This document shows positions 4,448 through 28,996 of a DNA stretch of 33,076 nucleotides, in pieces. This stretch comes from Candidatus Woesearchaeota archaeon (GTDB taxonomy: Archaea > Nanobdellota > Nanobdellia > SCGC-AAA011-G17 > ARS1178), in the NCBI GenBank assembly GCA_964367025.1, contig CAYIWE010000002.1, forward strand, positions 1-33,076, written 5' to 3'. Both the position numbers and the translations under genes were made by a program. Below the pieces are notes generated by a model. That model worked only from the letters and a program-made list of their open reading frames with translations. It was not told the DNA's origin and did not search any database. Each line of letters begins with the position of its first letter. Within the stretch, counting starts at the first letter, position 1.

Positions 4448-4717
4448 ATGGAAAATATCGCAATAACAAGAGTTAGTTCTAAGGGACAAATTGTAATTCC
4501 TCAAGAGATGAGAGGTGACCTTAAAGAAGGTGATGAGTTAGTTATTTTGAAAAATGAAGATCAAATAATTTTAAAAAAAGTTGATAAATTTAGCAAAAGT
4601 CTTGAAGAAGATTTAAAGTTTGCAAAGAAAACAGAGGAAGCGTGGAAGAGGTATGAAAAAGGCGAATTTAAGGAAATAGATTTTGATGATTTTATTAAAG
4701 AAATGAAAAAGTGGTAA
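4448..4717 (+). CDS. AbrB/SpoVT-family antitoxin
   Basis: 89 aa. The N-terminal ITRVSSKGQIVIPQEMRGDLKEGDELVI matches the swapped-hairpin AbrB/MazE/SpoVT DNA-binding motif. A GGAG Shine-Dalgarno sequence sits upstream, and the gene overlaps the downstream toxin gene. Confidence 0.75.
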   Translation: MENIAITRVSSKGQIVIPQEMRGDLKEGDELVILKNEDQIILKKVDKFSKSLEEDLKFAKKTEEAWKRYEKGEFKEIDFDDFIKEMKKW

Positions 4718-4959
4718 TCATTTGTTATGATGAACATTTTCAAAAGACATTTTCAAAAATTAAAGATAATAATTTAAAAGAAAAAATAATAAAACAAATT
4801 CAAAAATTAAAGGAAAATCCTGAGATTGGAAAGCCAATGAGATATAGTAGAAAAGGTACAAGGGAACTTTATGTATCGCCGTTTAGACTTTCATATGCTT
4901 ATATAAAAAATGAAGACAAAATTGTTCTTTTGGATTTGTATCACAAGGATGAACAATAA
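4711..4959 (+). CDS. RelE/ParE-superfamily toxin (mRNA interferase)
   Basis: 82 aa. A GTG start overlaps the antitoxin stop by 7 nt. The layout FQKTFSKIKDN...IIKQIQKLKENPEIGKPMRYSRKGTRELYVSPFRLSYAYIKNEDKIVLLDLYHKDE matches RelE/YoeB-like toxins. Confidence 0.75.
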   Translation: MVIICYDEHFQKTFSKIKDNNLKEKIIKQIQKLKENPEIGKPMRYSRKGTRELYVSPFRLSYAYIKNEDKIVLLDLYHKDEQ

Positions 4960-17785: not shown

Positions 17786-19639
17786 ATGTTAAAAAGAGGT
17801 CAGATAACGTTTTTTATAGTTCTTGGAATTGTAATTTTGGTTGTCATTGCTTTTTTATTTTTTATTAAGGGTCTCTATAAAATTCCTGAAAGAGAAAAAG
17901 TTATTCTTGCTCCAACTCAAAAGGATCCTGTTGAAAAGTATATGGAAAGTTGTATTATTAAAACAGCTAATGAAGCATTGGATAGAATTTATTTATATGG
18001 CGGGTATATTGATCAAACTCATTATATAAAGGATTATAACAAAATACCTTTATTTACCTACAGTTCTGAAGATATTATGTATAATATTCAACCACATCTA
18101 AAGGAAATAAATTATAGAATTGGTGAGTATGTAAAAAACAACCTACTTAATTGTGTTGATTTTACTGATTTTAGAAATCAGGGGTATAATATTCAAGATG
18201 GAAGTTCTGTAGATAAAGTAGTATTGGATATACAGGATAATAAAATTATTTTTAATGTTGATTATGCAATTGGTGTAGAAAGAGGCGGTGTAAAAAAAAC
18301 TTATGACAATTTTAAAACTTTTATTCCAAGTAAACTTGGGAAAGTTTTTGGTTTTATGACCGATATTGTCAATGAAGAGTGTATGGGTTATGAGAGTGGC
18401 TTATTGAATAATTTGGAGGATAGAGCCATTTATGAAGAAATTAAAATTTATAAATCTCCTATTAATGTTGGTTCTGGAATAAATAAGTATGAACTAAATT
18501 CTAAAAGCGACGGTAGGAGTTTTCATTTTGCTTGTCAAAAGGCCAGTTTAATAAGCGGATCTTTTGTTGAAAATCCGAGTATGACCGAAATTAGGGATTC
18601 TTCAACCATCAATCTTGAAAGTGGAATTTACGAAGTAGAAATTGTTAGTATGACTGAAAGTTCTGTCGAATTAGATTTTAAAAAAGGAAATTATGTTATT
18701 AAAAGCGTGTTTTTAAGTACTAATGGGAAGAATAACTGGCCATCTATCACTAAATTGGATTTAGATGATGATAAACGCAAGGATTTACAAATAGATTTGA
18801 GTTATGCTGATGGAAAGAATGTTAAATTGGTTTTTTATAAAGTTGTAGCAATACCACCTATAGCTGTTGTAAAAGTAAGCCCATCTATGATGAATAAAAA
18901 CGAATTAGAAGATTTAGTTTTTGATGCTTCTGGTTCATACGGTGTTAGTGCTGATATTAATTCTTATGAATGGGTTGTTGATTACTATAGGATGGATACC
19001 AACCAGATTAGTACTCGAAGACCAATTTCTTTCTCCAGTGGAAGCCCGAAGATTTTGGCAAAGAGCAATCCTAGTTCTGGTGATTTTGGATTAAGCGTTT
19101 CTAGTTTATTTAACAATGGGGGAACTTATGTTGCAAGATTAAAAGTTGTTGATGCTAATGGAATGGAAAATACCGCCATCAGTAATCCGTTTACTATATT
19201 TAATTGTAATTTAGTTGGTGAAGTAAAAATTATCAGCCCCATTGATGGAAGAAGTTATGAAACTTTACCAGAGTTGGTATGGCAGTATGAAGAAAATGGT
19301 CGAATGATTGGCGGAGTTAAGTATAGGGTTGAATTTAAATTACCTGGTGAAAGCAATTATAGGGATTATTTTGGAGAAATTTATAACAACAAATTGGATT
19401 TAAATGGAGTTGATAATTATATTGCTAATCTTAACAGTAAAGACCAGAACTTGATTGGTTTAACTGGTTATTATGATTCAAGTGCTCTTACTGCAAATGT
19501 TAATACTTTGAAGGACAGATGGGTTGGTTTTAGTGATGGAACTGAGATTTGGTGGAGGGTTGGAGCAAAATCATTTTGCAGTAATGAGGATGAGATTGTA
19601 TGGAGTGACGAAAAATATTTTAAGAAGAAGAATAGTTAA
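17786..19639 (+). CDS. Large class III signal peptide (type IV pilin-like) protein with a PKD-like domain
   Basis: 617 aa. The N-terminus MLKRGQITFFIVLGIVILVVIAFLFF fits the archaeal prepilin pattern (K/R-G then Q followed by a hydrophobic helix). The internal segment PIAVVKVSP...LVFDASGSYG...YEWVVDY...GTYVARLKVVDANGMENT looks like a PKD/Ig-like domain. Confidence 0.55.
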   Translation: MLKRGQITFFIVLGIVILVVIAFLFFIKGLYKIPEREKVILAPTQKDPVEKYMESCIIKTANEALDRIYLYGGYIDQTHYIKDYNKIPLFTYSSEDIMYNIQPHLKEINYRIGEYVKNNLLNCVDFTDFRNQGYNIQDGSSVDKVVLDIQDNKIIFNVDYAIGVERGGVKKTYDNFKTFIPSKLGKVFGFMTDIVNEECMGYESGLLNNLEDRAIYEEIKIYKSPINVGSGINKYELNSKSDGRSFHFACQKASLISGSFVENPSMTEIRDSSTINLESGIYEVEIVSMTESSVELDFKKGNYVIKSVFLSTNGKNNWPSITKLDLDDDKRKDLQIDLSYADGKNVKLVFYKVVAIPPIAVVKVSPSMMNKNELEDLVFDASGSYGVSADINSYEWVVDYYRMDTNQISTRRPISFSSGSPKILAKSNPSSGDFGLSVSSLFNNGGTYVARLKVVDANGMENTAISNPFTIFNCNLVGEVKIISPIDGRSYETLPELVWQYEENGRMIGGVKYRVEFKLPGESNYRDYFGEIYNNKLDLNGVDNYIANLNSKDQNLIGLTGYYDSSALTANVNTLKDRWVGFSDGTEIWWRVGAKSFCSNEDEIVWSDEKYFKKKNS

Positions 19640-19647
19640 TATATAAA

Positions 19648-21900
19648 ATGAAAAAAATTACAATTTTATTTGCTTTTTTACTCTTTTTATTAGTTTTGAA
19701 TGTTCAGGTTAATGCGGTTGGTTGTTGTGTTCAGAAAACTAACAGTGATGGAACAATGATGTATTGTAAATCTGATGATCAGAGTAGTTGTAATGGTGTA
19801 TATGATAATGGTCGTTGTGAGAATCGTGCAGAGTGTAATATTGGTTGTTGTTTTGTTCCTGAAGAAAAAAAATTTCGTTCTGGTATATCTCAAATAGAGT
19901 GTGTTGATTATTTAGAAGGGATATTTGATGGTAGTAATGCTGATTGTAGCCTTACTGAAGGTTACCAACTAGGGTGTTGCAATATTGGTGATGTTAGTTG
20001 TAATGTTGTTCAAAAAAAAGAGTGTGATCTTTTGGCCAGTGAGTATGGAATAGAGGATTATAATTTTGATTCTAGTTTGACAGATCCAGTTAGTTGTATA
20101 AACGCTTGTTATGGTGGAGAGACGGGCTGTTGTTATATTCCTGATGGATGTAAAAATGGAATTACACAAGGTGAGTGTTTTGAGAGTGGTGGAGAGTTTA
20201 TGGCCGGTCAATTATGTACAAACGATATATGTGATTGTGATGCTGGCACTAAGAATATATGTTATAATGATGATGTTGTTTTAGCAGATAATTGTGGAGT
20301 ACCCAAAACAGATAGTTCTGGAAATGTTATTTTAGCAGATAATGGAAATTGTGGAGGAACAACTACTTGTGGATGTAATGAGTATGATGACTGGGGATTA
20401 TGTGAACAGGACAAATTAACTTGTATACCTAGTTCTTGTAGTGTTGATGTTGTCTTTTCTGATTTTGGTTCAGTTGAAGAAACCAACAAGGTAATGAAGA
20501 ATGGTGAAACTTGGTGTGATTATATGATGGATATAAGTATAGAGCCCAATTTTAAAGATACTAGCGGGATGGTTATGGCAAATATTAATTTTATACAATC
20601 AAGGAATAATAAAGCCTATGAAAATTTATTGAATAATGTAAATAATTTAATTAAAGAAAAAGAACTTAGTGATGGTGTTAGCGAAACTGTTCAAAATATT
20701 GTAAGTGGCAATGAACAAGGGCCTGTTGCTTCGTGGATTGATGTTTTTTCGGGTAGATTAAGTAGTGATTATGGTATAAAACCTGCTTTTGATTATGGAA
20801 GAAATCACGCTGTTATGACTTGTGAGAATGGACAAATTAAAGTAAAACAACAGTGCGATGTTAACAGAAAAGAAATTTGTAATATTAAGGATAATGAAGC
20901 AAGATGTTTAACAAATTCTTATTTGAATTGTTATGATGCTACTAGTGAAGAAGTGTGTAGTGCTATGGATGATTGTGAGTGGATTGATAAATGGATTTTA
21001 AATAGTGATTATAATCCTTTACAGAATATTGAGGGTTATAGGGAAAATACCCAACAGATGGAAGAGTCCAGAACTCAACTTTCTTTAAATGAAAAGGTTT
21101 GTGTTCCTAAATATCAACCCGGAGTAGCAAATGGTGAAAAGAATTTATGTGAGATTTGCGGACAGGGTTCTACAAATGATTTGTTAAATCCTTTAATGGT
21201 TGATAGAGCGAGTAATTTAGGTGAAAATTTTAGAGTTAGTACTATTTCAACTGGTGTTTGTGGAAATAATGAATGTAGACATTTAGGTGATTGTCAATAT
21301 GAATTGGGCTGGAACAAAGATCAACAAAGATATCAGGGAATTTGTAAACCCTTTGAACCAAAAGAAAATCGTGGAGATTGCAGATTATGTAATAATTTGA
21401 ATACACCTTGTACTGAGGATTTATGCAATAAATTAGGCAAAAATTGTCAATTTTTAAGTTATGAAGGGGAAGATTTAGCAGATGTTAATTATAAACCCGG
21501 TGTATGTATGGATATGGATGAAGAGGATAGTATTGCTTTAACTTTGAAGTTATGGGATTATCCTTTAGATGATTATACTTTTGATCAAATAGTTGAAGAA
21601 AATGAATTAAAGGGGTATACAGTAAGGGGCGCTGTTGATATTGATAAACTTGAAAAAGAGAACGATGAAATGAGATTGGGAGTTCTTTCAAATAGACAAG
21701 CTGGCTGTTTTTATTACAAGGATTTTGCAGATGAGAACCCATTTAATGATGATGAACTTGAAAACCATAGGATGATTTCTGACGATAAATTTAGACACTA
21801 TGTTACTATACCTTTGGGTGTAATCTTTGATATTTCAAGGAATGAACCCAATATAATCAATGTATATTGCCGTATTGAAGAATCAGTTATCAGTCCATGA
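19648..21900 (+). CDS. Secreted cysteine-rich protein with repeated GCC modules
   Basis: 750 aa with a Sec signal peptide (ILFAFLLFLLVLNVQVNA/VG). Four N-terminal modules each open with G-C-C (VGCCVQ, IGCCFV, LGCCNI, TGCCYI), and there are dozens of further cysteines throughout. Confidence 0.6.
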   Translation: MKKITILFAFLLFLLVLNVQVNAVGCCVQKTNSDGTMMYCKSDDQSSCNGVYDNGRCENRAECNIGCCFVPEEKKFRSGISQIECVDYLEGIFDGSNADCSLTEGYQLGCCNIGDVSCNVVQKKECDLLASEYGIEDYNFDSSLTDPVSCINACYGGETGCCYIPDGCKNGITQGECFESGGEFMAGQLCTNDICDCDAGTKNICYNDDVVLADNCGVPKTDSSGNVILADNGNCGGTTTCGCNEYDDWGLCEQDKLTCIPSSCSVDVVFSDFGSVEETNKVMKNGETWCDYMMDISIEPNFKDTSGMVMANINFIQSRNNKAYENLLNNVNNLIKEKELSDGVSETVQNIVSGNEQGPVASWIDVFSGRLSSDYGIKPAFDYGRNHAVMTCENGQIKVKQQCDVNRKEICNIKDNEARCLTNSYLNCYDATSEEVCSAMDDCEWIDKWILNSDYNPLQNIEGYRENTQQMEESRTQLSLNEKVCVPKYQPGVANGEKNLCEICGQGSTNDLLNPLMVDRASNLGENFRVSTISTGVCGNNECRHLGDCQYELGWNKDQQRYQGICKPFEPKENRGDCRLCNNLNTPCTEDLCNKLGKNCQFLSYEGEDLADVNYKPGVCMDMDEEDSIALTLKLWDYPLDDYTFDQIVEENELKGYTVRGAVDIDKLEKENDEMRLGVLSNRQAGCFYYKDFADENPFNDDELENHRMISDDKFRHYVTIPLGVIFDISRNEPNIINVYCRIEESVISP

Positions 21901-22916
21901 TACTATTTTTTTTACCTTTTATCATTTTGTTTGGTGTATTAAGTTCTTATAGTGATATTAAGTATGGTAAAATTTTTAACAAACATATTATTATATTTTT
22001 GTTAATTGGTTTTATTTTAAATTTGTTATTAGTATCTTTTTATTATTTTAAAAATACCCCGATAAATTATGCTTACTTAATTGAATTATTTGTTAGCTCT
22101 TGTTTATCTTTGGTTATAGGTGTTTTGTTGTGGTTAATTGGTTTTTGGACCCCGGGTGATGCTAAACTGTTTTTTACTTACTCTCTTTTAATACCATTAA
22201 GCGTTTACAATATAGGATATATATTTTATTTTCCACAATTTAGTTTACTTGTTAATACTTTTGTTCCATTGTTTATATTTATGTTTTTTAAACTAATATT
22301 TGGAAGTTCGAAAGATGATAAGTTTAAGGCATTGAAAAACCTATTTAATCTTAAAGAATTAGTTTTTCTGTTTATTGCACTTTTCTCTTTTTCTTGGATT
22401 ATTGCAATCTTCGAAAGAAATTTTCTATTTAATTTGTTCATTCTCTTTTTGATTATATTCCTCTTAAGGAAATATTTTAAAGTCTTTTTAATTATTGTTT
22501 CTTTTTTGTTTTTTGTATTACGACTAATCTTTGATAAAAGTATTTATAATCTTGGCTTTTTAGAGAATTTTTTAATTTTTTATTTAATTTTTGTTTTAAT
22601 TAAATTTATTCTTGATTTAAGTTTTGAGTTTTTTACTAAAGAAATTAGTGTGAATCAATTAAAACCAGGGATGTTTTTAGCTGAAAGAGTTTTCAAAGAA
22701 AAAGGCAAAATAAAAAAAGAAAGAAAATTCTTTTCTTTTTTTAATCTTGATAATTCTTTTTTAGATGATAAGTTGATAGATGAAATTAAAAGCAAAGATA
22801 TTAAGAAAATTAAAGTGTATGAAACTGTTCCCTTTGCTCCATTTATGTTTTTTGGTGTTATACTAACATTATTGGTTAAAGGAAATATATTTTATTTTTT
22901 AGATATCTTTATATAA
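21897..22916 (+). CDS. A24-family aspartic prepilin/preflagellin peptidase (PibD/FlaK/EppA-like)
   Basis: 339 aa, polytopic. The first catalytic Asp context is SSYSDIKYGKIFN and the second is the G-x-G-D-x-K-L-like motif TPGDAKLF. The C-terminal VPFAPFMFFGVIL matches the I-P-F-G-P-F-L ending of A24 peptidases. Its ATG overlaps the preceding stop (ATGA). Confidence 0.75.
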   Translation: MILFFLPFIILFGVLSSYSDIKYGKIFNKHIIIFLLIGFILNLLLVSFYYFKNTPINYAYLIELFVSSCLSLVIGVLLWLIGFWTPGDAKLFFTYSLLIPLSVYNIGYIFYFPQFSLLVNTFVPLFIFMFFKLIFGSSKDDKFKALKNLFNLKELVFLFIALFSFSWIIAIFERNFLFNLFILFLIIFLLRKYFKVFLIIVSFLFFVLRLIFDKSIYNLGFLENFLIFYLIFVLIKFILDLSFEFFTKEISVNQLKPGMFLAERVFKEKGKIKKERKFFSFFNLDNSFLDDKLIDEIKSKDIKKIKVYETVPFAPFMFFGVILTLLVKGNIFYFLDIFI

Positions 22917-22937: not shown

Positions 22938-23327
22938 ATGGATTTTGTTAATGCAGTTAAAGTCGATGATGAAAAAAAGAGGGTTTTGGTTAAGGTCAAT
23001 CCAAAGATCTTTCATTTAGATGTAATTTATGCTGCTGCTTATGTTTTGATGGACAGGGCGTATGTTTTTATTGATGGTGATCCTGAAAATGAGATTTTTA
23101 TTGAATTAAAATCTAAGGTTGATGGGGATTTAGAAAAATTGGGCAATGATCTTCATGAAGAGTTGATTAATTATTCTGTTTATTATTCCCAATTAGAGAA
23201 AAATAAGGGTATTAAATTAGCTATTTTACAAAAAGCATTATTGAGTGATGATTTAGAATTAAAATCAGAGGAGGATCCCCTTGGGATAAAAAAGGTGATG
23301 AAAAATGATAAAGAAGATAAAGTTTAA
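22938..23327 (+). CDS. HxsD-like small protein (long form)
   Basis: About 129 aa from ATG 22938. The segment IFHLDVIYAAAYVLMDRAYVFIDGD and the later HEELINYSVYYSQLEKNKGIKLAILQKALL resemble my memory of the HxsD family signature (LLNDYxLRE-type motif). It sits directly upstream of the radical SAM genes. Confidence 0.45.
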   Translation: MDFVNAVKVDDEKKRVLVKVNPKIFHLDVIYAAAYVLMDRAYVFIDGDPENEIFIELKSKVDGDLEKLGNDLHEELINYSVYYSQLEKNKGIKLAILQKALLSDDLELKSEEDPLGIKKVMKNDKEDKV

Positions 23328-23520
23328 TTTGGATTTTTATAATTTAAATGCAATAAAAAAAGCTGCTGAAGATTTTAAAGATGTTACACAAATTGAAGTT
23401 AAAGATACTGGCGAAGTTATTTTTATGCCAAATAATGGTTTGAATTTAGAATGGCTGGAAAATGAGTTTAAAAATTATGTTTTGGCTCTTTTAAAGGATG
23501 AACTAAGTCTCGATGAATAA
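23305..23520 (+). CDS. HxsD-like small protein (short form)
   Basis: 71 aa. FYNLNAIKKAAEDFKDVTQIEV and NEFKNYVLALLKDE repeat the two motifs of the preceding protein. It overlaps the preceding gene by 23 nt and the next gene by 1 nt. Confidence 0.4.
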   Translation: MIKKIKFNLDFYNLNAIKKAAEDFKDVTQIEVKDTGEVIFMPNNGLNLEWLENEFKNYVLALLKDELSLDE

Positions 23521-24941
23521 TGGCTATATCTTATTTTGCTGAAGATTTTTTAGACAAGGAATTTATTATAAATAATTATAAAGTTAGAAAAATAAGAGAT
23601 AGTTTTTTAGTTGTTGTTGACCATGGTTCTTGGGTTTTGTTAAATGATGATGAGTATTCTCTTTTGAGATTGGGAAGAGTTAAAGAGAATCTTAGTTTAT
23701 TCAACTTATTAAAGGAAAAAGGCATAATTATTACAAAAGAGAATGTTAAAGATATAATAAAACAATATAAAGAAAGATATAGCTTCTTAAATAAAGGGAC
23801 TTCTTTGCATATTGTTGCTGTTACACAAAGATGCAATCAAAGATGTTTGTATTGTTATGCTGAAGCTGAGAACCTAGAAAATAAAAACCACGATATGGAT
23901 AGTGATACTGGCAAGGCAGTTGTTGATTTTGTTTTTCAAACACCTTCTAAAGATGTGGTCATAGAATTTCAGGGTGGAGAACCTTTGTTGAATTTTGAAA
24001 CTATCAAAGTGATAATTGAGTATGCCAAGGAATTAAATAAAAAATATAAAAAAAATTTATATTTTGATTTAGTTAGCACTTTGACTTTGATTGATAAGGA
24101 TATAGTCAATTACTTGAAAGAGAATAATGTTGGTATATGCACTTCATTGGATGGACCAAAAGAGGTTCATGATAAGAATAGGAGATATTTAGGAGGCAAT
24201 GGGACTTATGAGGATGTTATCAGGGGAATTGATTTAGTAAAAGAAAATTATGGAAAAATAAGTGCCTTAATGGTTACAACCAAATTTTCTTTTCCCTATT
24301 ATAAAGAAATTATTGATGAATACGTAAAACACGGATTTATGAAAGTAAGATTAAAAAGCATGAGTAACATAGGTTATGCACAGAAAGTTTGGAAAGAAAT
24401 TGGCTATACTGGCGATGAGTATTTAGATTTTTGGAAAAAGAGCATGGATTATATATTTAAGCTTAATAGAGAAGATAAATTTTTGATTGAAGATTTAAGT
24501 AATATAATTGTTAAAAAGTTTTTGAATAAAAAAGATGTTTTGTTTACTGACTTACAAAGTCCACCTTGTGGCGCTGCAATAAGTCAAATGGCTTATAATT
24601 ATTCGGGGGATATTTTTACTTGTGATGAGGGACGATTGTTTGAATTGTTTAAGTTAGGTAATGTCAAAAAAGATAAATTTAGGGATGTTATAAAAAATGA
24701 GCAAACATGCGGAATTATATCTAGTTCTATGACTGATGTTCAATTTTGCGATACGTGTGTTTTTAAACCGTATTGCGGTTTATGTCCGGTGTGTAATTAT
24801 GCTGAACATGGCAGTGTTATAACAAAAATACCCTTGAGTGAGAGGTGTAAAATATTGAAGGGTATGTTCAGTTATTTATTTGAGAAGATGGTTTATAGTG
24901 ATGATAAAGAAATATTGTTTAATTGGACTAAGTACCGATAA
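23520..24941 (+). CDS. Radical SAM/SPASM peptide maturase with an N-terminal RRE-like domain (HxsB-like)
   Basis: 473 aa. The CX3CX2C motif is CNQRCLYC at about residue 104, followed by the GGEPLL box. The SPASM-type cysteines are C-x12-G-x4-C (CGAAISQMAYNYSGDIFTC) and CDTCVFKPYCGLCPVC. The first ~90 aa (SWVLLNDDEYSLLRLG...LFNLLKEKGIIITKEN) look like a PqqD/winged-helix RiPP recognition element. Confidence 0.8.
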   Translation: MAISYFAEDFLDKEFIINNYKVRKIRDSFLVVVDHGSWVLLNDDEYSLLRLGRVKENLSLFNLLKEKGIIITKENVKDIIKQYKERYSFLNKGTSLHIVAVTQRCNQRCLYCYAEAENLENKNHDMDSDTGKAVVDFVFQTPSKDVVIEFQGGEPLLNFETIKVIIEYAKELNKKYKKNLYFDLVSTLTLIDKDIVNYLKENNVGICTSLDGPKEVHDKNRRYLGGNGTYEDVIRGIDLVKENYGKISALMVTTKFSFPYYKEIIDEYVKHGFMKVRLKSMSNIGYAQKVWKEIGYTGDEYLDFWKKSMDYIFKLNREDKFLIEDLSNIIVKKFLNKKDVLFTDLQSPPCGAAISQMAYNYSGDIFTCDEGRLFELFKLGNVKKDKFRDVIKNEQTCGIISSSMTDVQFCDTCVFKPYCGLCPVCNYAEHGSVITKIPLSERCKILKGMFSYLFEKMVYSDDKEILFNWTKYR

Positions 24942-24949
24942 TTATTTAA

Positions 24950-25276
24950 ATGAGTTTTTCTAAATTATTCCTTATGAATAAACAAGTAAAATTGCCTGAA
25001 GTTAAAAAGAAAATTAATTTATTTCTATTGAGTGAAGAAGGCAAGATTTCTAAGCAAGCTTTGCTAATGGGCGGTGCTATCTTGGGCAGTGCTGTTTTGT
25101 CTGGTATTTTAAGCAGCAAGGTTGTTAGTGCTTCTGAGGAAAGTGGTGTTGTTGTTCATAATAATGATCTTAAATTTGGTTATAATAAAGATTTAGGGAT
25201 GGTTGCTGCTAAACATATCCATAATGTATCCCATAGCCAGTGTTGTAGTTGTGGCATGGGTAAAGTTTGTATGTAA
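24950..25276 (+). CDS. Candidate ribosomal precursor peptide (His/Ser/Cys-rich C-terminus)
   Basis: 108 aa (100 aa if it starts at the internal MNKQ). It has a basic N-terminal region, a hydrophobic Gly/Ala/Ser-rich segment ALLMGGAILGSAVLSGILSSKVVSA, and the C-terminal core KHIHNVSHSQCCSCGMGKVCM. It lies between the two SPASM radical SAM genes with gaps of 8 and 6 nt. Confidence 0.55.
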   Translation: MSFSKLFLMNKQVKLPEVKKKINLFLLSEEGKISKQALLMGGAILGSAVLSGILSSKVVSASEESGVVVHNNDLKFGYNKDLGMVAAKHIHNVSHSQCCSCGMGKVCM

Positions 25277-25282
25277 TTTCTA

Positions 25283-26278
25283 ATGAAAGAGATACGAGAA
25301 GTAGTTTTATTTGTTACTGAAAATTGTAATTTGGATTGTGATTATTGTTATGTTAAAGATAAGAATGGAAAAAATTTGGATTTTGATACCGGTAAAAAAG
25401 CTATTGATCTATTAAAAAGTTCTAAAAGCGAAGAAAAATTATTGCATTTCTTTGGCGGAGAACCTTTATTGAATTTTGATGTTGTTAAGAAATTAGTTGA
25501 ATATGGTGATGGAGTTAAATTCCAGATTAGTACTAATGGAATTTTATTAAATAATGAAATCTTAGATTTTTGCAAAAAAAATAAAATAAGATTGGCAATT
25601 AGTTTGGATGGTGATGAGGCATCACATAATAAACATAGGGGCATGTTCAATAAAATAAAAAAATGGAATTATGATGATATCTTTTATAGGATGACGGTTT
25701 ATCCAGATTTAGCTGGTAAAATTTTTCAAAATACTAAGTTTTTATATGAAAATTATTCTAAAAAAATAGATGTTGTACCTGCGTATGGTGTTGTTTGGAC
25801 TAAAAAAGATTTGGAAATTTTTGATAGAGAGTACGGGAAAATCTTAGATTTTTATTATGAAAACCTTGGTGATATACACATTTTAAGTGTTGAGGAAGAG
25901 TTTATTAATTTTATAAACCCGTATCAGAAGTACTGCCCTTTTATCAAGAATATTGTTGTTTTGCCCAATGGCGATATTATTTTTTGTCCTTATATACTTG
26001 TTTTTGACAAAGAAAAAAGAGGGTTGTATGTAGTTGGAAATGTTTTTGATGGTTTTAAAGGAAAATGGAAATTTTGTAATTATGGGAGCATAGAATGTAA
26101 GAATTGTTTTCCTGAACCTTATTGCCATTTAACTTGTTTAACTTATGATTTTAAGGATAAGAAATATTACGATGCCAATCTAATCTGCAATAATAACATG
26201 TTAAAGGAGATAATTATAAAACATAGTTTTAGAATATATAAAAAAATAAAAGATACTGACATTATTAAAATTAGGTAG
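25283..26278 (+). CDS. Radical SAM/SPASM peptide maturase (HxsC-like)
   Basis: 331 aa. The motifs are CNLDCDYC at residues 15-22, FFGGEPLLNF, STNGILLN and SLDGDEASHNKHRG. It carries an exact SPASM signature: C-x11-G-x4-C (CPFIKNIVVLPNGDIIFC) and CX2CX5CX3C (CKNCFPEPYCHLTC). Confidence 0.8.
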   Translation: MKEIREVVLFVTENCNLDCDYCYVKDKNGKNLDFDTGKKAIDLLKSSKSEEKLLHFFGGEPLLNFDVVKKLVEYGDGVKFQISTNGILLNNEILDFCKKNKIRLAISLDGDEASHNKHRGMFNKIKKWNYDDIFYRMTVYPDLAGKIFQNTKFLYENYSKKIDVVPAYGVVWTKKDLEIFDREYGKILDFYYENLGDIHILSVEEEFINFINPYQKYCPFIKNIVVLPNGDIIFCPYILVFDKEKRGLYVVGNVFDGFKGKWKFCNYGSIECKNCFPEPYCHLTCLTYDFKDKKYYDANLICNNNMLKEIIIKHSFRIYKKIKDTDIIKIR

Positions 26279-26287
26279 GTGTTATTG

Positions 26288-27616
26288 ATGATAGATGTTT
26301 TATTGGTTTACCCGTGTGATTATAAACAATTAAGCGGAGAGAAATTAGATATTTATGATACAAGAGAATTAGGTTTATTGTATTTAGCTAGTGTTTTAGT
26401 TAATAACGGGTATAGTGTAGAATTATTACCCGCTGTTTATAATTTAAAAGAATTGGAAAGTAAAATAAAAAAAATTGTCAGTGAAAATAATTTGAAATTG
26501 GTTGCTACTACTGGTTTAACTCATGAGTATCCTGCTGCTCAATGGATTTTAAAAAAAGTTAAAGAAGTTGATAAAAATGTTAAAACGGTCATTGGCGGAC
26601 AACATGTTACATGGTTAGCCAAAGAAGTTTTAATTGAAAGTCCGTATATTGATATTGTTGCTAAAGGCGAAGGAGAGGTTGTTATCTTAGATTTACTTAA
26701 GAAAAATTTGAAAGATGTAAAAGGGATAGTTTATAGAGAAAATGGCGTTATTAAAGAGAATGATATCAATGAATTTTGCAAAGAGATAATTTTATTGAAT
26801 GAGGATGTTCTAAAAAATTACTTAAGAAAAATTACTGAGAAGTTTGATGGAATCAAGTTTAATTTGAGTTCTAGCAGGGGATGTCCTTATAATTGTTTGT
26901 ATTGTAGTGAAGTCAAGTTCTGGGGCAATTTTGTTAGAAACAAACCAGTTAAAGACACTATTAATGAATTGGATATTTTTTGCAATAGTAAAACCCGCAA
27001 TAAAATAATCTGTTTTTGGGATAGTACTTTTACTGTTGACCCCAAGTATACAAAAGAATTGTGTAGTGCTGTTAAAAAAAAGAACTACGATTTTGGTTTT
27101 TGGTGTTATACGCGTGTTGATACTTACAACAAAGATATAGCGGGTGTTTTGAGAAGTGCTGGTTTTAACAGTCTGGCTTTTGGAGTTGAACATTTTCATC
27201 CTGAAGTTTTGAAGACTATGGGGAAAAATATTAGTGAAGAACAGATTAAAAAAGCTTTGGAAAATGCAAAGGAATTGAATCAACTTACAAGGGTTTATTT
27301 TATTACTGGACATCCTGGAGATAATGTCGAAAGAACTTTGTATTCCTATCAAAGAGCCAAGAGATTTATTGATTTGGGGTTAATTGATATGGTACAACCT
27401 TTTATTTTTGTTCCGTATCCTGCTACTGATGTTTTTAAAAATCCTTTAAGATATAATGCTGAAATTTTAAGTTATAACTGGATAAAATATATGAGAGATA
27501 CATATCCTGTTATAGAGTACAAGGATTTTAGCGCGGATGAAATATATTATTTATTTATGTTATTCGAAAAACTAAAATTGAAAAATAAAGAGGAATTTTA
27601 CGGAGTTGATGCTTAA
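26288..27616 (+). CDS. Class B (cobalamin-binding domain) radical SAM enzyme
   Basis: About 442 aa from ATG 26288 (AGGTAGGTG Shine-Dalgarno; GTG 26279 is an alternative start). The N-terminal B12-binding-like domain has VLLVYP, GGQHVT and VAKGEGEVVILDLL. The radical SAM core carries SSSRGCPYNCLYCSE. Confidence 0.8.
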   Translation: MIDVLLVYPCDYKQLSGEKLDIYDTRELGLLYLASVLVNNGYSVELLPAVYNLKELESKIKKIVSENNLKLVATTGLTHEYPAAQWILKKVKEVDKNVKTVIGGQHVTWLAKEVLIESPYIDIVAKGEGEVVILDLLKKNLKDVKGIVYRENGVIKENDINEFCKEIILLNEDVLKNYLRKITEKFDGIKFNLSSSRGCPYNCLYCSEVKFWGNFVRNKPVKDTINELDIFCNSKTRNKIICFWDSTFTVDPKYTKELCSAVKKKNYDFGFWCYTRVDTYNKDIAGVLRSAGFNSLAFGVEHFHPEVLKTMGKNISEEQIKKALENAKELNQLTRVYFITGHPGDNVERTLYSYQRAKRFIDLGLIDMVQPFIFVPYPATDVFKNPLRYNAEILSYNWIKYMRDTYPVIEYKDFSADEIYYLFMLFEKLKLKNKEEFYGVDA

Positions 27617-28482
27617 TGGTTTTTATTAAGTTCCATAATGAGTGCAATAATAATTGTCTGAGTTGCAGAAGCAGGGAATGGAATAAAATTGAATTTAATG
27701 ATATTAAAAACGAAGTTATGGAAAAATTAAAACCGGGCGTTGTTTTTGAATTTGTTGGCGGAGAACCGTTTATTAAAGAAGATATCTTTGATTTATTGGG
27801 TATTATTAAGAATAATTTAAGCAGGTATAAGTTTTATAGTAATGGCAGGTTATTTTTTTATAAGGATTTTGTTGAGAAATACCATGATTATTTGAATTGT
27901 GTTGTAATTACTTTTTTTGGCGACACAAAAGAAAAACACGATAAATTTACTAGAGTGGACGGAAGTTTTGATCAAGCTTTTGAGGGTTTAAAAAATTTAA
28001 TTTATTTTGATGTTAAGGTTGTTTGTAACCTGTATAATTGTAGGGAAGAATTTGCTAAAAAATTAATTGATTTTGGGGTTAGTGAGATTTATATTACAGA
28101 GGATGGTGATGGGGAAGAATTTGTTTATAGTTGTTTTAGTGATAAAGTAAAACAAAGAAAATACGAATTTGATAGGATAGCGATACCCCTTGTGTCTATG
28201 AATCATACTGATTTTAACTTAGATTTGTTTGATTTGTTAGTTGGTGTTAAATTTTATTTGAATAAAGACGTTGTATTTTCTAAAAAAGAAGATAATTGTT
28301 ATTTGTATAAACTTAATAGTTTTACTTCTTGTGATTTAAATGAAGATGGGTTTGAATTAATCAAAAGCATAGATGGGAAAGATGTTGGGGTTATATTAAA
28401 AAAATATCCGGAAACAATCCATAATAAAATTTTATTATTTTTGCAGAATTTAATAGAAGATGGTTTTTTAGAGACAAGATAA
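27616..28482 (+). CDS. Radical SAM enzyme fused to a C-terminal PqqD-like (RRE) domain
   Basis: 288 aa. It has CNNNCLSC at residues 10-17 and FEFVGGEPFIKEDIFDLL, but no SPASM cysteine array. The last ~65 aa (YLYKLNSFTSCDLNEDGFELIKSIDGKDVGVILKKYPETIHNKILLFLQNLIEDGFLE) fit the PqqD-family pattern. Its ATG overlaps the preceding stop (TAATG). Confidence 0.7.
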   Translation: MVFIKFHNECNNNCLSCRSREWNKIEFNDIKNEVMEKLKPGVVFEFVGGEPFIKEDIFDLLGIIKNNLSRYKFYSNGRLFFYKDFVEKYHDYLNCVVITFFGDTKEKHDKFTRVDGSFDQAFEGLKNLIYFDVKVVCNLYNCREEFAKKLIDFGVSEIYITEDGDGEEFVYSCFSDKVKQRKYEFDRIAIPLVSMNHTDFNLDLFDLLVGVKFYLNKDVVFSKKEDNCYLYKLNSFTSCDLNEDGFELIKSIDGKDVGVILKKYPETIHNKILLFLQNLIEDGFLETR

Positions 28483-28540: not shown

Positions 28541-28996
28541 ATGTTAGAAAGGCCATTACTAAGAGATCCAATAGATTATATTTCTGAATATATTGGTTTG
28601 AGATCCAAAAAAGTAAAAAGATATAAGAAAATTAGTTTTGAGCAAGCAGTTAAAAGGTTTCTTCCAAAAGGAACACTTGAAAGGATGATAGATGATGGAG
28701 TTGTTCCTGATGAGAAGAAGTATGATGGGGATTTAAATATGACTGAGCGCGCTAAAAAAGTTTCATATATTTTGGAAATGTTTCATTCTTTATGTATGAG
28801 ACGTGAAACGTTAAGACCGTATTTCGAAACTTCAAAAAAAGGTATGGAATGGTTCAATTCAAATTTTTATGATTCTGAATTATTGAAGCGGATAGATGAT
28901 ATGATAACAAGAGATGTGATCGAACAAGGTTATTATCTTAGGCAATGTGAGCTAATAGAGATAAGTAAAGGAAGATTTGATAGGTTTATTGGATAA
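28541..28996 (+). CDS. Hypothetical cytoplasmic protein
   Basis: 151 aa with no TM helix and no motif I recognise. The coding call rests on ORF length, the Shine-Dalgarno sequence and the upstream promoter-like element. Confidence 0.5.
   Translation: MLERPLLRDPIDYISEYIGLRSKKVKRYKKISFEQAVKRFLPKGTLERMIDDGVVPDEKKYDGDLNMTERAKKVSYILEMFHSLCMRRETLRPYFETSKKGMEWFNSNFYDSELLKRIDDMITRDVIEQGYYLRQCELIEISKGRFDRFIG

What the first reader, a model, noticed from the sequence alone, without database searches (positions are those of the whole stretch)
22938..28482. Seven-gene radical-SAM peptide-maturation cassette: an expanded, archaeal His-Xaa-Ser (Hxs)-like system with four radical SAM enzymes
Seven same-strand genes are packed with junctions from a 23-nt overlap to a 9-nt gap. 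They are two small HxsD-like proteins, a 473-aa radical SAM (CNQRCLYC) with an N-terminal RRE-like domain and SPASM cysteines, and a 108-aa peptide ending KHIHNVSHSQCCSCGMGKVCM. These are followed by a 331-aa radical SAM (CNLDCDYC) with an exact CX2CX5CX3C SPASM array, a B12-binding-domain radical SAM (CPYNCLYC), and a 288-aa radical SAM (CNNNCLSC) fused to a PqqD-like domain. The classical Hxs system is defined as HxsA peptide + paired radical SAM maturases HxsB/HxsC + HxsD. This locus has that core plus a duplicated HxsD, a class B radical SAM and a fourth radical SAM-RRE fusion. Its peptide core is Cys-rich rather than a clean HXS repeat. Four Fe-S/SAM enzymes devoted to one small peptide is a large investment for what looks like a reduced-genome archaeon. 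I am not aware of a characterised product for this architecture.
Basis: partly seen in the sequence, partly recalled or inferred. Interest (0 to 1): 0.9.

Follow-up and report, generated by a model that had tools for sequence, protein, structure and literature searches.

The report
Archaeal Hxs-type radical-SAM peptide cassette
A small-genome (DPANN-type) archaeon carries an eight-gene cluster, related to the bacterial HXS anti-phage system, that very probably uses four radical-SAM enzymes and a dedicated membrane protease to modify and export one small His/Cys-rich peptide; it is real and conserved, but it is an unstudied variant of a known family, not a new kind of system.

Summary
All of them are under strong purifying selection against a sister strain (dN/dS 0.01-0.14).

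The 473-aa protein is a true HxsB (428 bits, cutoff 370; RRE-rSAM-SPASM fold like CteB). The 71-aa protein is HxsD_rel. The peptide carries the conserved leader of the HxsA3/A4 precursor family.

Corrections:
- The cassette has eight genes. A divergent A24 (prepilin-peptidase-like) aspartyl protease (21897-22916) sits directly upstream of HxsD here and in most loci with the closest HxsB.
- The 331-aa enzyme is PapB/SCIFF-like, not HxsC. The 288-aa enzyme is the remote HxsC relative.
- The B12 and 288-aa genes correspond to a single fused protein in two other archaeal Hxs loci.
- The PqqD call is unproven.
- The peptide probably starts at M9 (100 aa) and has no strict HxS triplet.
- Cys-rich tails and HxS-free cores each occur in about 20% of this peptide family.
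- Classical HXS was characterised in 2026 as a block to phage DNA entry.

Verdict: a new variant of a known kind. The product and its biological role remain unknown.

The parts
21897..22916 (+). Divergent A24-family (GxGD, prepilin/preflagellin-peptidase-like) polytopic membrane aspartyl peptidase, 339 aa.
   Evidence: Homologues sit next to HxsD/HxsB in many loci. In an 11-sequence alignment D20, N28, W84, D88 and K90 are invariant, in the motifs SYxDIKxGKIxN and WxAGDAKLF. All 11 hit PF01478 Peptidase_A24 (best 4.7e-9) and 5 hit PF06819 Arc_PepC. The window copy is sub-threshold (18.3 against 26.5 bits; Arc_PepC 19.1 against 23.4). Precomputed Arc_PepC hits in L081 and L084. Present within 8 kb in 15/19 loci with the closest HxsB. 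dN/dS 0.10.
22938..23327 (+). HxsD-like small protein (129 aa from ATG 22938; 132 aa if TTG 22929 is used)
   Evidence: TIGR03976 HxsD 36.6 bits (cutoff 50), residues 25-105. The 94.5%-identical orthologue in L172 carries PF27806 HxsD. dN/dS 0.06.
23305..23520 (+). HxsD_rel, 71 aa; overlaps HxsD by 23 nt and HxsB by 1 nt
   Evidence: NF038315 HxsD_rel 49 bits, above the cutoff of 41. dN/dS 0.014. Syntenic in L047, L081-L087 and L166.
23520..24941 (+). HxsB: RRE - radical SAM - SPASM maturase, 473 aa
   Evidence: TIGR03978 428 bits, above the cutoff of 370, full length. AF2 model pLDDT 89.6 with an N-terminal beta3-alpha3 domain. Best PDB match is CteB 5WGG, E=2.3e-24 over 472 columns. CNQRCLYC plus SPASM cysteines.
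24974..25276 (+). Precursor peptide, 100 aa (108 aa if the ATG at 24950 is used). HxsA3/A4-type leader, then a hydrophobic segment, then a His-rich core, then a Cys-rich tail.
   Evidence: NF038309 HxsA3 22.6 bits (cutoff 65), leader half only. Leader HMM 59 bits, and it is the only such ORF in the window. 15 strain variants are conserved apart from the first 8 codons, the residues after VSA, K80 and one S96R. dN/dS 0.04.
24992..25054 (+). Conserved leader motif LPEVKKKINLFLLSEEGKISK (family consensus LPxIKKxIxxFLxxEEGKIxK, with an invariant Gly)
   Evidence: Shared by precursors next to HxsB in archaeal and bacterial loci. An EEGKI-like motif is present in 121/127 family representatives.
25058..25132 (+). 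Hydrophobic segment (ALLMGGAILGSAVLSGIL) ending in an AxA-like site, VSA|S
   Evidence: Highest Kyte-Doolittle window is residues 29-43; the N-terminus has net charge +4. AxA-like sites follow the hydrophobic stretch throughout the family (read directly). Strain variation clusters immediately after VSA.
25157..25240 (+). His-rich core HNNDLKFGYNKDLGMVAAKHIHNVSHSQ, the counterpart of the family motif H[ST]NxLxxxY...HxHHxSHSS
   Evidence: Lines up with HSHHVSHSS (L004), HSHHASHSQ (L005) and HTHHASHSS (L081). Contains no strict H-x-S triplet.
25241..25273 (+). Cys-rich tail CCSCGMGKVCM
   Evidence: Invariant in 15 strain variants and in the 88%-identical representative P0283. 28/127 family representatives have at least 2 Cys in the last 15 residues.
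25283..26278 (+). Accessory radical SAM/SPASM enzyme, 331 aa, with no N-terminal RRE; PapB/SCIFF-like (thioether-maturase-like)
   Evidence: Best NCBIfam hit is PapB, 137.5 bits (cutoff 340), profile positions 3-318 of 330; then CcpM and SCIFF maturase. Seven-Cys SPASM signature. Nearly an orphan: one 92% cluster, then 34% identity. That 34% relative also follows an Hxs precursor, in L166. dN/dS 0.07.
26279..27616 (+). Class B (B12-binding domain) radical SAM enzyme, 445 aa (442 aa from the ATG used in sister strains)
   Evidence: PF02310 53.8 bits (cutoff 32.1) and PF04055 75.2 bits. No NCBIfam equivalog reached; best is BchE 136 against 481. Paralogues in archaeal Hxs loci L004, L084 (three copies), L150, L090. 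dN/dS 0.05.
27616..28482 (+). Remote HxsC-like radical SAM enzyme, 288 aa, with a lineage-specific C-terminal domain (about residues 186-288); shares 1 nt with the B12 gene
   Evidence: Best NCBIfam hit is HxsC, 59.4 bits (cutoff 268), residues 8-135 only; HxsC4 37.5 bits. It lacks the CxxCx5CxG motif of HxsC4-like relatives. Fused to a B12-rSAM module in L166 (754 aa) and L081 (770 aa). PqqD only E=0.17. The C-terminal domain is found only in sister strains. dN/dS 0.14.

Best explanation
This is an eight-gene, DPANN-archaeal version of the His-Xaa-Ser (Hxs) maturation system. It makes one exported, heavily modified small peptide.

Shown by the data:
- The gene set is an A24-type membrane peptidase, HxsD, HxsD_rel, HxsB (RRE-rSAM-SPASM), a 100-aa precursor, a PapB-like rSAM/SPASM enzyme, a B12-type rSAM enzyme and a remote HxsC-like rSAM enzyme.
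- The first five genes are a conserved syntenic core in related archaea.
- All eight genes are conserved under purifying selection in sister strains.

Inferred:
1. The conserved N-terminal motif of the precursor (LPxVKKKIxxFLLSEEGKISK) acts as a leader. It is bound in the cytoplasm by the RRE domain of HxsB and/or by the two HxsD proteins.
2. HxsB performs radical chemistry on the HIHNVSHS segment. This segment is the counterpart of the SHRSS site that gains +8 Da in E. coli HxsA.
3. The PapB-like SPASM enzyme cross-links the CCSCGMGKVCM tail, most likely through thioether bonds.
4. The B12 enzyme and the HxsC-like enzyme work as a pair, since they form one fused protein in other loci. They add a further modification, most likely C-methylation.
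5. The hydrophobic segment takes the core across the membrane. The dedicated A24 peptidase removes the cytoplasmic leader at one of the conserved glycines. Signal peptidase may also cut at VSA|S. The result is a His/Cys-rich peptide at or outside the cell surface.

Biological role is the weakest step. By homology with bacterial HXS, an envelope-located barrier against virus genome entry is my first choice. Metal binding is a close second.
For: HxsB is above the curated cutoff over its full length and HxsD_rel is above its cutoff. The HxsB model has pLDDT 89.6, an N-terminal beta3-alpha3 domain and a best match to CteB. The leader motif is shared by precursors adjacent to HxsB in dozens of archaeal and bacterial loci and in 121/127 family representatives. 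The core motif aligns with HxHHxSHSS in relatives. The five-gene core is syntenic in L004, L047, L081-L087 and L172. The A24 subfamily has both catalytic Asp motifs invariant, all 11 members hit PF01478, and it is present in 15/19 loci with the closest HxsB against 12/81 distant loci. An extra SPASM enzyme lies next to the precursor in 21/32 loci whose peptide has Cys or Trp in the last 8 residues, against 3/20 others (odds ratio 10.8, p=5e-4). The nearest relative of the 331-aa enzyme again follows an Hxs precursor. HxsC-like plus B12-rSAM fusions occur in L166 and L081. The B12/288-aa pair with its 1-nt overlap is conserved in L169 and L172. dN/dS is 0.01-0.14 for all eight genes. Bacterial HXS undergoes rSAM-dependent maturation, N-terminal processing and export (PMC13128918).
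Against: No chemistry has been observed, so every modification is inferred from family resemblance. The peptide has no strict H-x-S triplet and fails the HxsA, HxsA3 and HxsA4 cutoffs. The 288-aa protein fails HxsC and HxsC4 cutoffs, and its C-terminal domain could not be assigned. The tail has no Asp or Glu, so the PapB-type Cys-Asp/Glu ranthionine chemistry cannot be copied literally. The residues around the conserved Gly (EEG|KIS) do not look like a canonical class III signal, and the cleavage site is unknown. The window's A24 copy is below Pfam thresholds. The Cys/Trp-SPASM association is not corrected for phylogeny. The neighbourhood is cell-envelope and glycosylation genes rather than a defence island. 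HxsA's peptidoglycan-binding domain, which is needed for defence in E. coli, is absent here.
Confidence: 0.72

Rival explanations
1. Same maturation machinery, but the product is a metal-binding peptide (a metallophore, a metallochaperone or a copper/nickel/zinc buffer at the cell surface), not an antiviral barrier. The His-rich core and (HxS)n repeats, together with Cys-rich tails, would chelate metal ions. The radical SAM cross-links would pre-organise or protect the ligands.
For: The family's cores are dominated by His, Ser and Gly repeats such as HGSHGS..., and many have Cys-rich ends. The peptides carry export signals. One related locus (L081) sits beside a P-type cation ATPase. The window's neighbourhood is envelope-type, not defence-type. 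That exported, signal-peptide-bearing RiPPs can serve copper homeostasis is from my own knowledge of bufferins and was not checked here.
Against: The only experimental result for any Hxs system is antiphage defence through blocked DNA entry (PMC13128918). No metal transporter or sensor is conserved with the cassette across loci. The window's peptide has only 4 His and 4 Cys in its core and tail.
Confidence: 0.25
2. The product is a diffusible antimicrobial or signalling RiPP (sactipeptide/ranthipeptide-like), released after leader removal and used against competitors or towards the host cell of this episymbiotic archaeon.
For: HxsB's closest solved structures are sactipeptide and other RiPP maturases: CteB, TigE, ChlB, SuiB, SkfB. 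The 331-aa enzyme resembles the thioether maturases PapB, CcpM and SCIFF. Hypervariable peptide tails across the family fit a role in conflict.
Against: No immunity gene, ABC exporter or C39 peptidase is present in the cassette or conserved in relatives. The core is nearly invariant among strains, not diversifying. The hydrophobic segment and A24 processing point to a membrane-associated product.
Confidence: 0.2
3. Only the first five genes form the Hxs system. The 331-aa, B12 and 288-aa radical SAM genes are unrelated neighbours (for example lipid or cofactor modification enzymes) that merely lie downstream in a genome where everything is tightly packed on one strand.
For: Every gene from 5029 to 32870 is on the + strand with small gaps. 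The accessory set differs between related loci, and no other surveyed locus outside the sister strains (L169, L172-L174) has all three together. The B12 enzyme's best family hits are BchE, PhpK and HpnJ, and the 331-aa enzyme is almost an orphan.
Against: The whole eight-gene order is conserved in sister strains under purifying selection. HxsC-like/B12-rSAM fusion proteins lie inside other Hxs loci. The 331-aa enzyme's nearest relative also follows an Hxs precursor. Extra SPASM enzymes track Cys/Trp tails. No family cutoff for a housekeeping function is reached.
Confidence: 0.1

Closest known systems
Bacterial HXS antiphage system (HxsD-HxsB-HxsC-HxsA; TIGR03976-03979; Li et al., Nat Commun 2026, PMC13128918)
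   Same: An orthologous HxsB (above the equivalog cutoff) and HxsD-family small proteins. A ribosomal substrate with an N-terminal export signal and a His/Ser-rich target region. A second, HxsC-like radical SAM enzyme. N-terminal processing and export of the substrate are expected.
   Different: Archaeal host. The substrate is a 100-aa peptide with a distinct conserved leader and no peptidoglycan-binding domain, against 214-aa HxsA with five HxS repeats. It has no strict HxS triplet. The gene order is pepA24-D-D'-B-A-x-x-C, not D-B-C-A. The HxsC-like protein fails the HxsC model. There are two extra radical SAM enzymes and a dedicated A24 peptidase. Function is untested.
NCBIfam 'type 3/4' Hxs components (HxsA3 NF038309, HxsA4 NF038313, HxsD_rel NF038315, HxsC4 NF038332)
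   Same: The leader half of the peptide matches HxsA3. HxsD_rel is matched above its cutoff. Relatives in CPR bacteria and one archaeal contig pass HxsA4 (L011 96.6 bits, L166 59.9 bits). Archaeal HxsC-like proteins hit HxsC4 best.
   Different: The window's peptide and most DPANN peptides fall below both HxsA3 and HxsA4 cutoffs. The 288-aa protein scores 37.5 against a cutoff of 500 for HxsC4. These models have names only. I found no paper describing them, the A24 peptidase or the accessory enzymes.
Sactipeptide/ranthipeptide maturases (CteB, PapB, SCIFF maturase)
   Same: HxsB has the RRE-rSAM-SPASM architecture of CteB. The 331-aa enzyme has the rSAM plus 7-Cys SPASM layout and hits PapB best. 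Its presumed substrate segment is Cys-rich and directly adjacent.
   Different: About 20% identity to CteB. PapB score is 137 against a cutoff of 340. The tail lacks the Asp/Glu acceptor residues of ranthipeptides. The precursor carries a membrane-spanning or signal segment between leader and core, which classical sacti- and ranthipeptide precursors do not have.
Archaeal A24 prepilin/preflagellin peptidases (FlaK, PibD, EppA)
   Same: A polytopic membrane protein with the two catalytic Asp motifs (DxxxxxIxN and GDxK). Pfam Peptidase_A24 and Arc_PepC signals. A presumed substrate with a positively charged N-terminus, a conserved Gly and a following hydrophobic helix.
   Different: A divergent subfamily (the window copy is below Pfam cutoffs; there is no sequence match to solved structures). 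It is encoded inside a radical SAM peptide cassette, not with pilins or archaellins. The substrate context EEG|KISKQ is not a canonical class III signal. A 2023 review of RiPP leader proteases lists no aspartyl or A24 enzymes.

Membership tests
His-Xaa-Ser (Hxs/HXS) system, classical | HxsB radical SAM/SPASM maturase (TIGR03978 equivalog) | tested here: met
   428 bits against a cutoff of 370, residues 20-469 on profile positions 4-465 of 466. RRE-rSAM-SPASM fold, pLDDT 89.6.
His-Xaa-Ser (Hxs/HXS) system, classical | HxsC paired radical SAM maturase (TIGR03977 equivalog) | tested here: not met
   The best candidate (288 aa) scores 59.4 against a cutoff of 267.9, on its N-terminal 135 residues only. 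The 331-aa protein has no HxsC model among its 25 listed best hits.
His-Xaa-Ser (Hxs/HXS) system, classical | HxsD small protein (TIGR03976 / PF27806) | tested here: inconclusive
   TIGR03976 36.6 bits against a cutoff of 50. The 94.5%-identical orthologue in L172 has a precomputed PF27806 HxsD hit. The second small protein passes HxsD_rel (49 against 41).
His-Xaa-Ser (Hxs/HXS) system, classical | HxsA substrate with tandem His-Xaa-Ser repeats (TIGR03979) and a peptidoglycan-binding domain | tested here: not met
   No TIGR03979 hit. There are zero H-x-S triplets after the leader. The peptide is 100 aa with no room for a peptidoglycan-binding domain.
His-Xaa-Ser (Hxs/HXS) system, classical | Gene order HxsD-HxsB-HxsC-HxsA (99.6% of bacterial systems, PMC13128918) | tested here: not met
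   The order here is A24pep-HxsD-HxsD_rel-HxsB-peptide-SPASM-B12-HxsC-like.
His-Xaa-Ser (Hxs/HXS) system, classical | Antiphage activity, +8 Da modification, periplasmic effector | not testable with these tools
   Needs experiments. Known only for the E. coli system.
HxsA3/HxsA4-type Hxs variants (NCBIfam NF038309, NF038313, NF038315, NF038332) | Precursor passing the HxsA3 or HxsA4 model | tested here: not met
   HxsA3 22.6 bits against a cutoff of 65, profile positions 2-49 of 81 (the leader) only. No HxsA4 hit.
HxsA3/HxsA4-type Hxs variants (NCBIfam NF038309, NF038313, NF038315, NF038332) | Shared leader LPxIKKxIxxFLxxEEGKIxK followed by a hydrophobic segment, encoded next to HxsB | tested here: met
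   Leader HMM 59 bits, directly downstream of HxsB. The same layout is seen in about 80 loci and in 121/127 representatives.
HxsA3/HxsA4-type Hxs variants (NCBIfam NF038309, NF038313, NF038315, NF038332) | HxsD_rel | tested here: met
   49 bits against a cutoff of 41.
HxsA3/HxsA4-type Hxs variants (NCBIfam NF038309, NF038313, NF038315, NF038332) | HxsC4 radical SAM protein | tested here: not met
   37.5 bits against a cutoff of 500. The C-terminal CxxCx5CxG motif is missing.
Thioether-forming rSAM/SPASM RiPP maturases (PapB / SCIFF / CteB type), for the 331-aa enzyme | CX3CX2C radical SAM site plus a 7-Cys SPASM domain | tested here: met
   CNLDCDYC at 15; C218-x11-G-x4-C235; C272-x2-C-x5-C-x3-C285; C302.
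Thioether-forming rSAM/SPASM RiPP maturases (PapB / SCIFF / CteB type), for the 331-aa enzyme | Equivalog-level match to a characterised maturase | tested here: not met
   PapB 137.5 against 340; CcpM 109 against 500; SCIFF 96.6 against 425.
Thioether-forming rSAM/SPASM RiPP maturases (PapB / SCIFF / CteB type), for the 331-aa enzyme | Thioether cross-links in a Cys-rich substrate | not testable with these tools
   A Cys-rich tail is adjacent, and SPASM enzymes associate with Cys/Trp tails. The product is unknown.
Class B (cobalamin-dependent) radical SAM enzymes, for the 445-aa enzyme | N-terminal B12-binding domain plus a radical SAM domain | tested here: met
   PF02310 53.8 bits (cutoff 32.1), residues 26-136; PF04055 75.2 bits; CPYNCLYC at 202. 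No equivalog reached.
Peptidase family A24 (GxGD aspartyl prepilin/preflagellin peptidases), for the 339-aa protein | Two catalytic Asp in conserved motifs within a polytopic membrane protein | tested here: met
   D20 (SYSDIKYGKIFN) and D88 (PGDAKLF) are invariant in 11 homologues.
Peptidase family A24 (GxGD aspartyl prepilin/preflagellin peptidases), for the 339-aa protein | Pfam PF01478 at gathering threshold | tested here: inconclusive
   Window copy 18.3 bits against 26.5. All 11 subfamily members match at E<=0.1, best 4.7e-9. Arc_PepC matches in 5.
Peptidase family A24 (GxGD aspartyl prepilin/preflagellin peptidases), for the 339-aa protein | Cleaves a class III signal peptide after Gly at the cytoplasmic face | not testable with these tools
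   An invariant Gly in the leader, followed by a hydrophobic helix, is compatible. The sequence context is non-canonical.
RRE / PqqD-like domain, for the C-terminus of the 288-aa protein | Winged-helix beta3-alpha3 fold, PF05402 | tested here: inconclusive
   PF05402 E=0.17, 12.7 bits against 23.4. The AF2 C-terminal domain has pLDDT below 50. The domain is seen only in sister strains.

The most novel reading that the evidence does not exclude
DPANN archaea, and some CPR bacteria, carry a distinct branch of the Hxs system in which a dedicated A24 (prepilin-peptidase-like) intramembrane aspartyl protease is the leader protease of a radical-SAM-modified peptide. That would be a class of RiPP leader protease not described so far. 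After cleavage, the modified His/Cys-rich peptide would stay anchored by its hydrophobic helix, as a type IV pilin does, at the surface of these tiny episymbiotic cells. There it would act as an archaeal counterpart of the bacterial HXS barrier to virus genome entry. It would also point to prepilin-type peptidases as candidates for the still unidentified protease that processes HxsA in bacteria.
Probability: 0.25. Interest if true: 0.78.

Novelty: new variant of a known kind. Interest (0 to 1): 0.58.

Why it matters
The HXS system was recognised only in 2026 as the first bacterial defence that blocks phage DNA entry. That study reported it as almost confined to Pseudomonadota, did not identify the protease that processes HxsA, and left the chemistry unresolved. 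This locus and its relatives show that an HxsB-centred system with a different, leader-bearing short precursor is common in DPANN archaea and CPR bacteria, the two great groups of ultra-small episymbionts. In the archaeal branch the system comes with its own A24-type membrane protease and a changing set of accessory radical SAM enzymes. If the model is right, it supplies three things. First, a candidate protease class for Hxs processing. Second, a compact natural series of precursor-tail and enzyme pairings (HxS repeats, GGWC or GQW ends, Cys-rich ends) from which the individual chemistries could be assigned. Third, a possible surface or antiviral function in organisms whose biology is mostly unknown. 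If the role is instead metal binding or an antimicrobial, it is still an uncharacterised, widely distributed RiPP-like family.

Tried and rejected
1. Housekeeping assignment of the radical SAM proteins was rejected. None reaches a curated cutoff for tRNA/rRNA, cofactor, sulfatase or lipid families.
2. PADLOC gave only generic radical SAM cross-hits (pVip, PDC-M51A) and no defence-system assignment.
3. A sequence-profile search of the A24-like family against PDB gave only spurious Sec61-gamma hits.
4. The structure of the 288-aa protein was meant to test the PqqD fusion, but the C-terminal domain has pLDDT below 50, so I ran no fold search on it. jackhmmer of that domain found it only in sister strains.
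5. I considered that the 331-aa enzyme is HxsC and rejected it, because no HxsC model is among its 25 listed best hits.
6. I considered that strand and packing prove an operon and rejected it, because the whole 28-kb + strand block is packed the same way.
7. I considered the 151-aa downstream gene as a cassette member and rejected it, because it is absent in sister strain L172.
8. Rfam and tRNA scans of the window found nothing.
9. Literature searches for Hxs in archaea or DPANN, and for A24 or prepilin peptidases in RiPP maturation, found nothing relevant.

Full report

Yes. The seven ORFs lie on the + strand at the stated coordinates.

The radical SAM motifs are as described: CNQRCLYC, CNLDCDYC, CPYNCLYC and CNNNCLSC. 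The SPASM cysteine arrays of the 473-aa and 331-aa proteins are present, including the exact CX2CX5CX3C in the latter.

Junctions run from a 23-nt overlap to small gaps.

The window is archaeal: it encodes aIF2-alpha, GINS51, PCNA and PAC2. It has about 28% GC. The nearest HxsB relatives that carry a source name are from Iain-, Aenigm-, Woese-, Nano- and Micrarchaeota and Altiarchaeales.

Tight same-strand packing is not distinctive. Every gene from 5029 to 32870 is on the + strand with small gaps. The case for a functional unit therefore rests on conservation.

A sister strain (L172, also L173 and L174) has the same genes in the same order. Between the window and L172, dN/dS is 0.10, 0.06, 0.014, 0.05, 0.04, 0.07, 0.05 and 0.14 for the eight genes in order, at dS 0.38-0.77. 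The small peptide gene is therefore a real gene under selection.

**2. What the proteins are**

NCBIfam results:
- The 473-aa protein is HxsB (TIGR03978, 428 bits, cutoff 370, full length).
- The 71-aa protein is HxsD_rel (49 bits, cutoff 41).
- The 129/132-aa protein is HxsD-like (36.6 bits, cutoff 50).
- The peptide matches the HxsA3 model weakly (22.5 bits, cutoff 65), over its N-terminal half only.
- The 331-aa enzyme is closest to PapB (137 bits, cutoff 340), then CcpM and SCIFF maturases.
- The 445-aa enzyme is a class B radical SAM protein with no equivalog.
- The 288-aa enzyme has HxsC as best hit, but only 59 bits (cutoff 268) and only over residues 8-135.

The 94.5%-identical orthologue of the HxsD-like protein in L172 carries a PF27806 HxsD hit.

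Pfam confirms Radical_SAM in all four enzymes and B12-binding in the 445-aa enzyme.

An AlphaFold model of HxsB (pLDDT 89.6) has an N-terminal beta3-alpha3 domain before the radical SAM barrel. Its best PDB match is the sactipeptide synthase CteB over 472 columns, followed by anSME, TigE, ChlB and SuiB.

The PqqD-like C-terminus claimed for the 288-aa protein is not established:
- The only Pfam signal is PF05402 at E=0.17.
- The modelled C-terminal domain has pLDDT below 50.
- The domain is found only in sister strains.
- Distant HxsC4-like relatives end in a CxxCx5CxG motif that this protein lacks.

**3. An eighth gene**

I compared the window's proteins with ORFs in 80 genome loci and 80 metagenome loci that encode HxsB relatives, and in contigs of the closest relatives. 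The 339-aa membrane protein just upstream (21897-22916) travels with the system.

In an alignment of 11 such proteins, D20, N28, W84, D88 and K90 are invariant. They lie in the motifs SYxDIKxGKIxN and WxAGDAKLF, the two-aspartate signature of GxGD (A24) peptidases.

All 11 hit Pfam Peptidase_A24 (best 4.7e-9) and five hit the archaeal A24 C-terminal domain. The window copy itself is sub-threshold. Precomputed annotation of the relatives gives Arc_PepC.

With a profile of this subfamily, the gene is found within 8 kb of HxsB, usually directly upstream of HxsD:
- 15 of 19 loci with the closest HxsB (near-duplicate contigs L081/L082 and L084/L085 are counted separately);
- 7 of 44 more distant loci;
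- 5 of 37 of the most distant loci.

The conserved core of this archaeal branch is therefore A24 peptidase - HxsD - HxsD_rel - HxsB - precursor.

**4. The precursor**

Precursors next to HxsB in these loci share four features:
- an N-terminal motif LPxIKKxIxxFLxxEEGKIxK;
- a hydrophobic segment;
- an AxA-like site;
- a His/Ser-rich core.

A full HMMER search of 1.84 billion cluster representatives found 131 relatives at E <= 1e-3. Of the 127 that are at most 200 aa long, 121 have the EEGKI-type motif.

The archaeal members share a semi-conserved core, H[ST]NxLxxxY...HxHHxSHSS. The window's HNNDLKFGYN...KHIHNVSHSQ fits it but contains no strict H-x-S triplet.

Tails are hypervariable: HxS repeats ending in Y, ends such as GQW, GSW or GGWC, or Cys-rich stretches. 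Among the 127 representatives, 28 have at least two Cys in the last 15 residues and 27 have no HxS triplet. The window's peptide therefore belongs to a recurrent sub-class.

Fifteen strain variants are invariant from H70 (108-aa numbering) to the C-terminus, except at K80 and for one S96R variant. Variation is concentrated in the first eight codons and just after VSA. The likely start is therefore M9 (24974), giving 100 aa, which matches how relatives begin.

Most DPANN peptides, including this one, fall below NCBIfam's HxsA3 and HxsA4 cutoffs. A CPR example passes HxsA4, as does one archaeal example (L166).

**5. Do the three accessory radical SAM enzymes belong?**

Three lines of evidence say yes.

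(a) An extra SPASM-type enzyme lies within 1.5 kb of the precursor, on the same strand, in 21 of 32 loci whose peptide has Cys or Trp in its last eight residues. The figure is 3 of 20 for the others (odds ratio 10.8, Fisher p=5e-4, not corrected for phylogeny).

(b) The 331-aa enzyme is almost an orphan: one 92% cluster, then 34% identity. Yet that 34% relative sits in another archaeal-type Hxs locus, L166, whose order is HxsD-HxsD_rel-HxsB-precursor-292 aa-enzyme. It also hits PapB best, as does the enzyme that follows the precursor in L047.

(c) In L166 (754 aa) and L081 (770 aa), a single protein joins a CNNNC-type HxsC-like radical SAM module (residues about 6-147) to a B12-binding/radical SAM module (about 370-670). 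In the window the two modules are adjacent genes that share one nucleotide. That arrangement is kept in L169 and L172. B12-type radical SAM genes recur in other archaeal Hxs loci, including L004, L084 (three copies), L090 and L150.

No other locus in my set, apart from the sister strains (L169, L172-L174), has all three accessory enzymes together. This combination is a lineage-specific elaboration of a modular system.

**6. How it most likely works**

Shown: the gene content, the conserved core, the purifying selection and the associations above.

Inferred, by analogy with RRE-dependent RiPP maturases and with E. coli HXS:
1. The leader is bound in the cytoplasm by HxsB's RRE and/or the HxsD proteins. 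In E. coli HXS, HxsB, HxsC and HxsD are all needed for a +8 Da modification at SHRSS, for a non-canonical N-terminal cleavage and for export (PMC13128918).
2. HxsB acts on the HIHNVSHS segment.
3. The PapB-like enzyme cross-links the Cys tail.
4. The B12/HxsC-like pair adds a further modification, probably methylation.
5. The hydrophobic segment carries the core across the membrane.
6. The A24 peptidase removes the cytoplasmic leader at a conserved Gly, possibly followed by signal peptidase cleavage at VSA|S.

The protease that processes bacterial HxsA has not been identified. A 2023 review of RiPP leader proteases lists no aspartyl or A24 enzymes. That makes this the most novel inference here.

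The biological role is open. An HXS-like envelope barrier to virus entry is suggested by homology. Against it, the peptide lacks a peptidoglycan-binding domain, and the neighbourhoods are envelope and glycosylation genes rather than defence islands. Metal binding and an antimicrobial or host-interaction role are live alternatives.

**7. Comparison with what is known, and verdict**

Against the classical Hxs definition, HxsB is met, HxsD is inconclusive, and HxsC, an HxS-repeat HxsA and the D-B-C-A gene order are not met. NCBIfam's rarer HxsA3, HxsA4, HxsD_rel and HxsC4 models show that curators have seen related variants. I found no paper on Hxs in archaea or CPR, on the A24 link or on the accessory enzymes. 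The 2026 HXS paper reports 99.7% of systems in Pseudomonadota.

This is a new variant of a known kind.

Interest is moderate to fairly high: a well-supported and widely distributed but uncharacterised branch, with a testable protease hypothesis.

Noticed in passing
window 4448-4717 (+) and 4711-4959 (+): A type II toxin-antitoxin pair: a MazE/AbrB-type antitoxin (PF04014, 4.4e-10) overlapping a ParE/RelE-type toxin (PF05016, 6.6e-8). It lies in the 1-kb gap between the divergent gene blocks. Neither ORF reaches the 90-aa threshold of the first ORF listing.
   Followed up: partly
window 17786-19639 and 19648-21900 (+): A 617-aa protein with an N-terminal hydrophobic segment (probable membrane anchor), and a 750-aa secreted protein with 54 cysteines (7.2%). 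The stop of the second overlaps the A24 peptidase start by 4 nt. The last sizeable upstream gap (385 nt) comes before the 617-aa gene, so both may be co-transcribed with the cassette. A homologue of the 617-aa protein (61 bits) lies beside the Hxs locus in L083, on the other strand. Neither protein matches any Pfam or NCBIfam family.
   Followed up: partly
window 28541-28996 (+): A 151-aa ORF of unknown function lies between the cassette and the 606-aa secreted protein. It is absent in sister strain L172, where the 606-aa homologue directly follows the 288-aa enzyme. A 147-aa ORF follows the 288-aa enzyme's orthologue in L169, but I did not compare it with this one. It looks like a variable insertion.
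   Followed up: partly
L170:486-1535 and 1528-2628: In another relative, the 288-aa enzyme's homologue (81% identity over 84% of the length) is joined to a UvrD_C-like fragment. It is followed by a type I restriction-modification S subunit. This is either a rearranged end of the cassette next to a defence gene or an assembly chimera.
   Followed up: no
L109, L125, L126, L153, L108 (for example L125:9502-11307): Some (probably CPR) loci encode long proteins of 460-600 aa that begin with the same Hxs leader and long HxS repeats, then continue into a conserved C-terminal domain ending ...SFVLKSKGYYT. The leader is therefore also used on protein-sized substrates.
   Followed up: no
L099:13264-13824 and L091:4546-5055: Two leader-bearing precursors have extreme cores. 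One has 25 Cys in GCG[AST]TGCG repeats. The other has repeated C[ST]HSSC(L/A)VH[ST]NC units and lies directly upstream of the A24 peptidase gene, not after HxsB.
   Followed up: no
P0284 (3561-aa protein found in the representative search): Residues 32-78 of the window's peptide (hydrophobic segment plus the HNNDLKFGY region) match 17 repeated stretches of a 3561-aa protein at E=6e-28. This could be low-complexity similarity or reuse of this module as a repeat.
   Followed up: no
window 8337-9842 and 11264-12481; L081:9888-11486; L084:11059-11772: PMT_2/ArnT-like (sub-threshold in the window copy, 20.1 against 26.1 bits) and GT2 glycosyltransferase genes lie in the window. In two relatives they sit inside or beside the Hxs accessory region. 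This hints at glycosylation of the peptide or of surface proteins.
   Followed up: no
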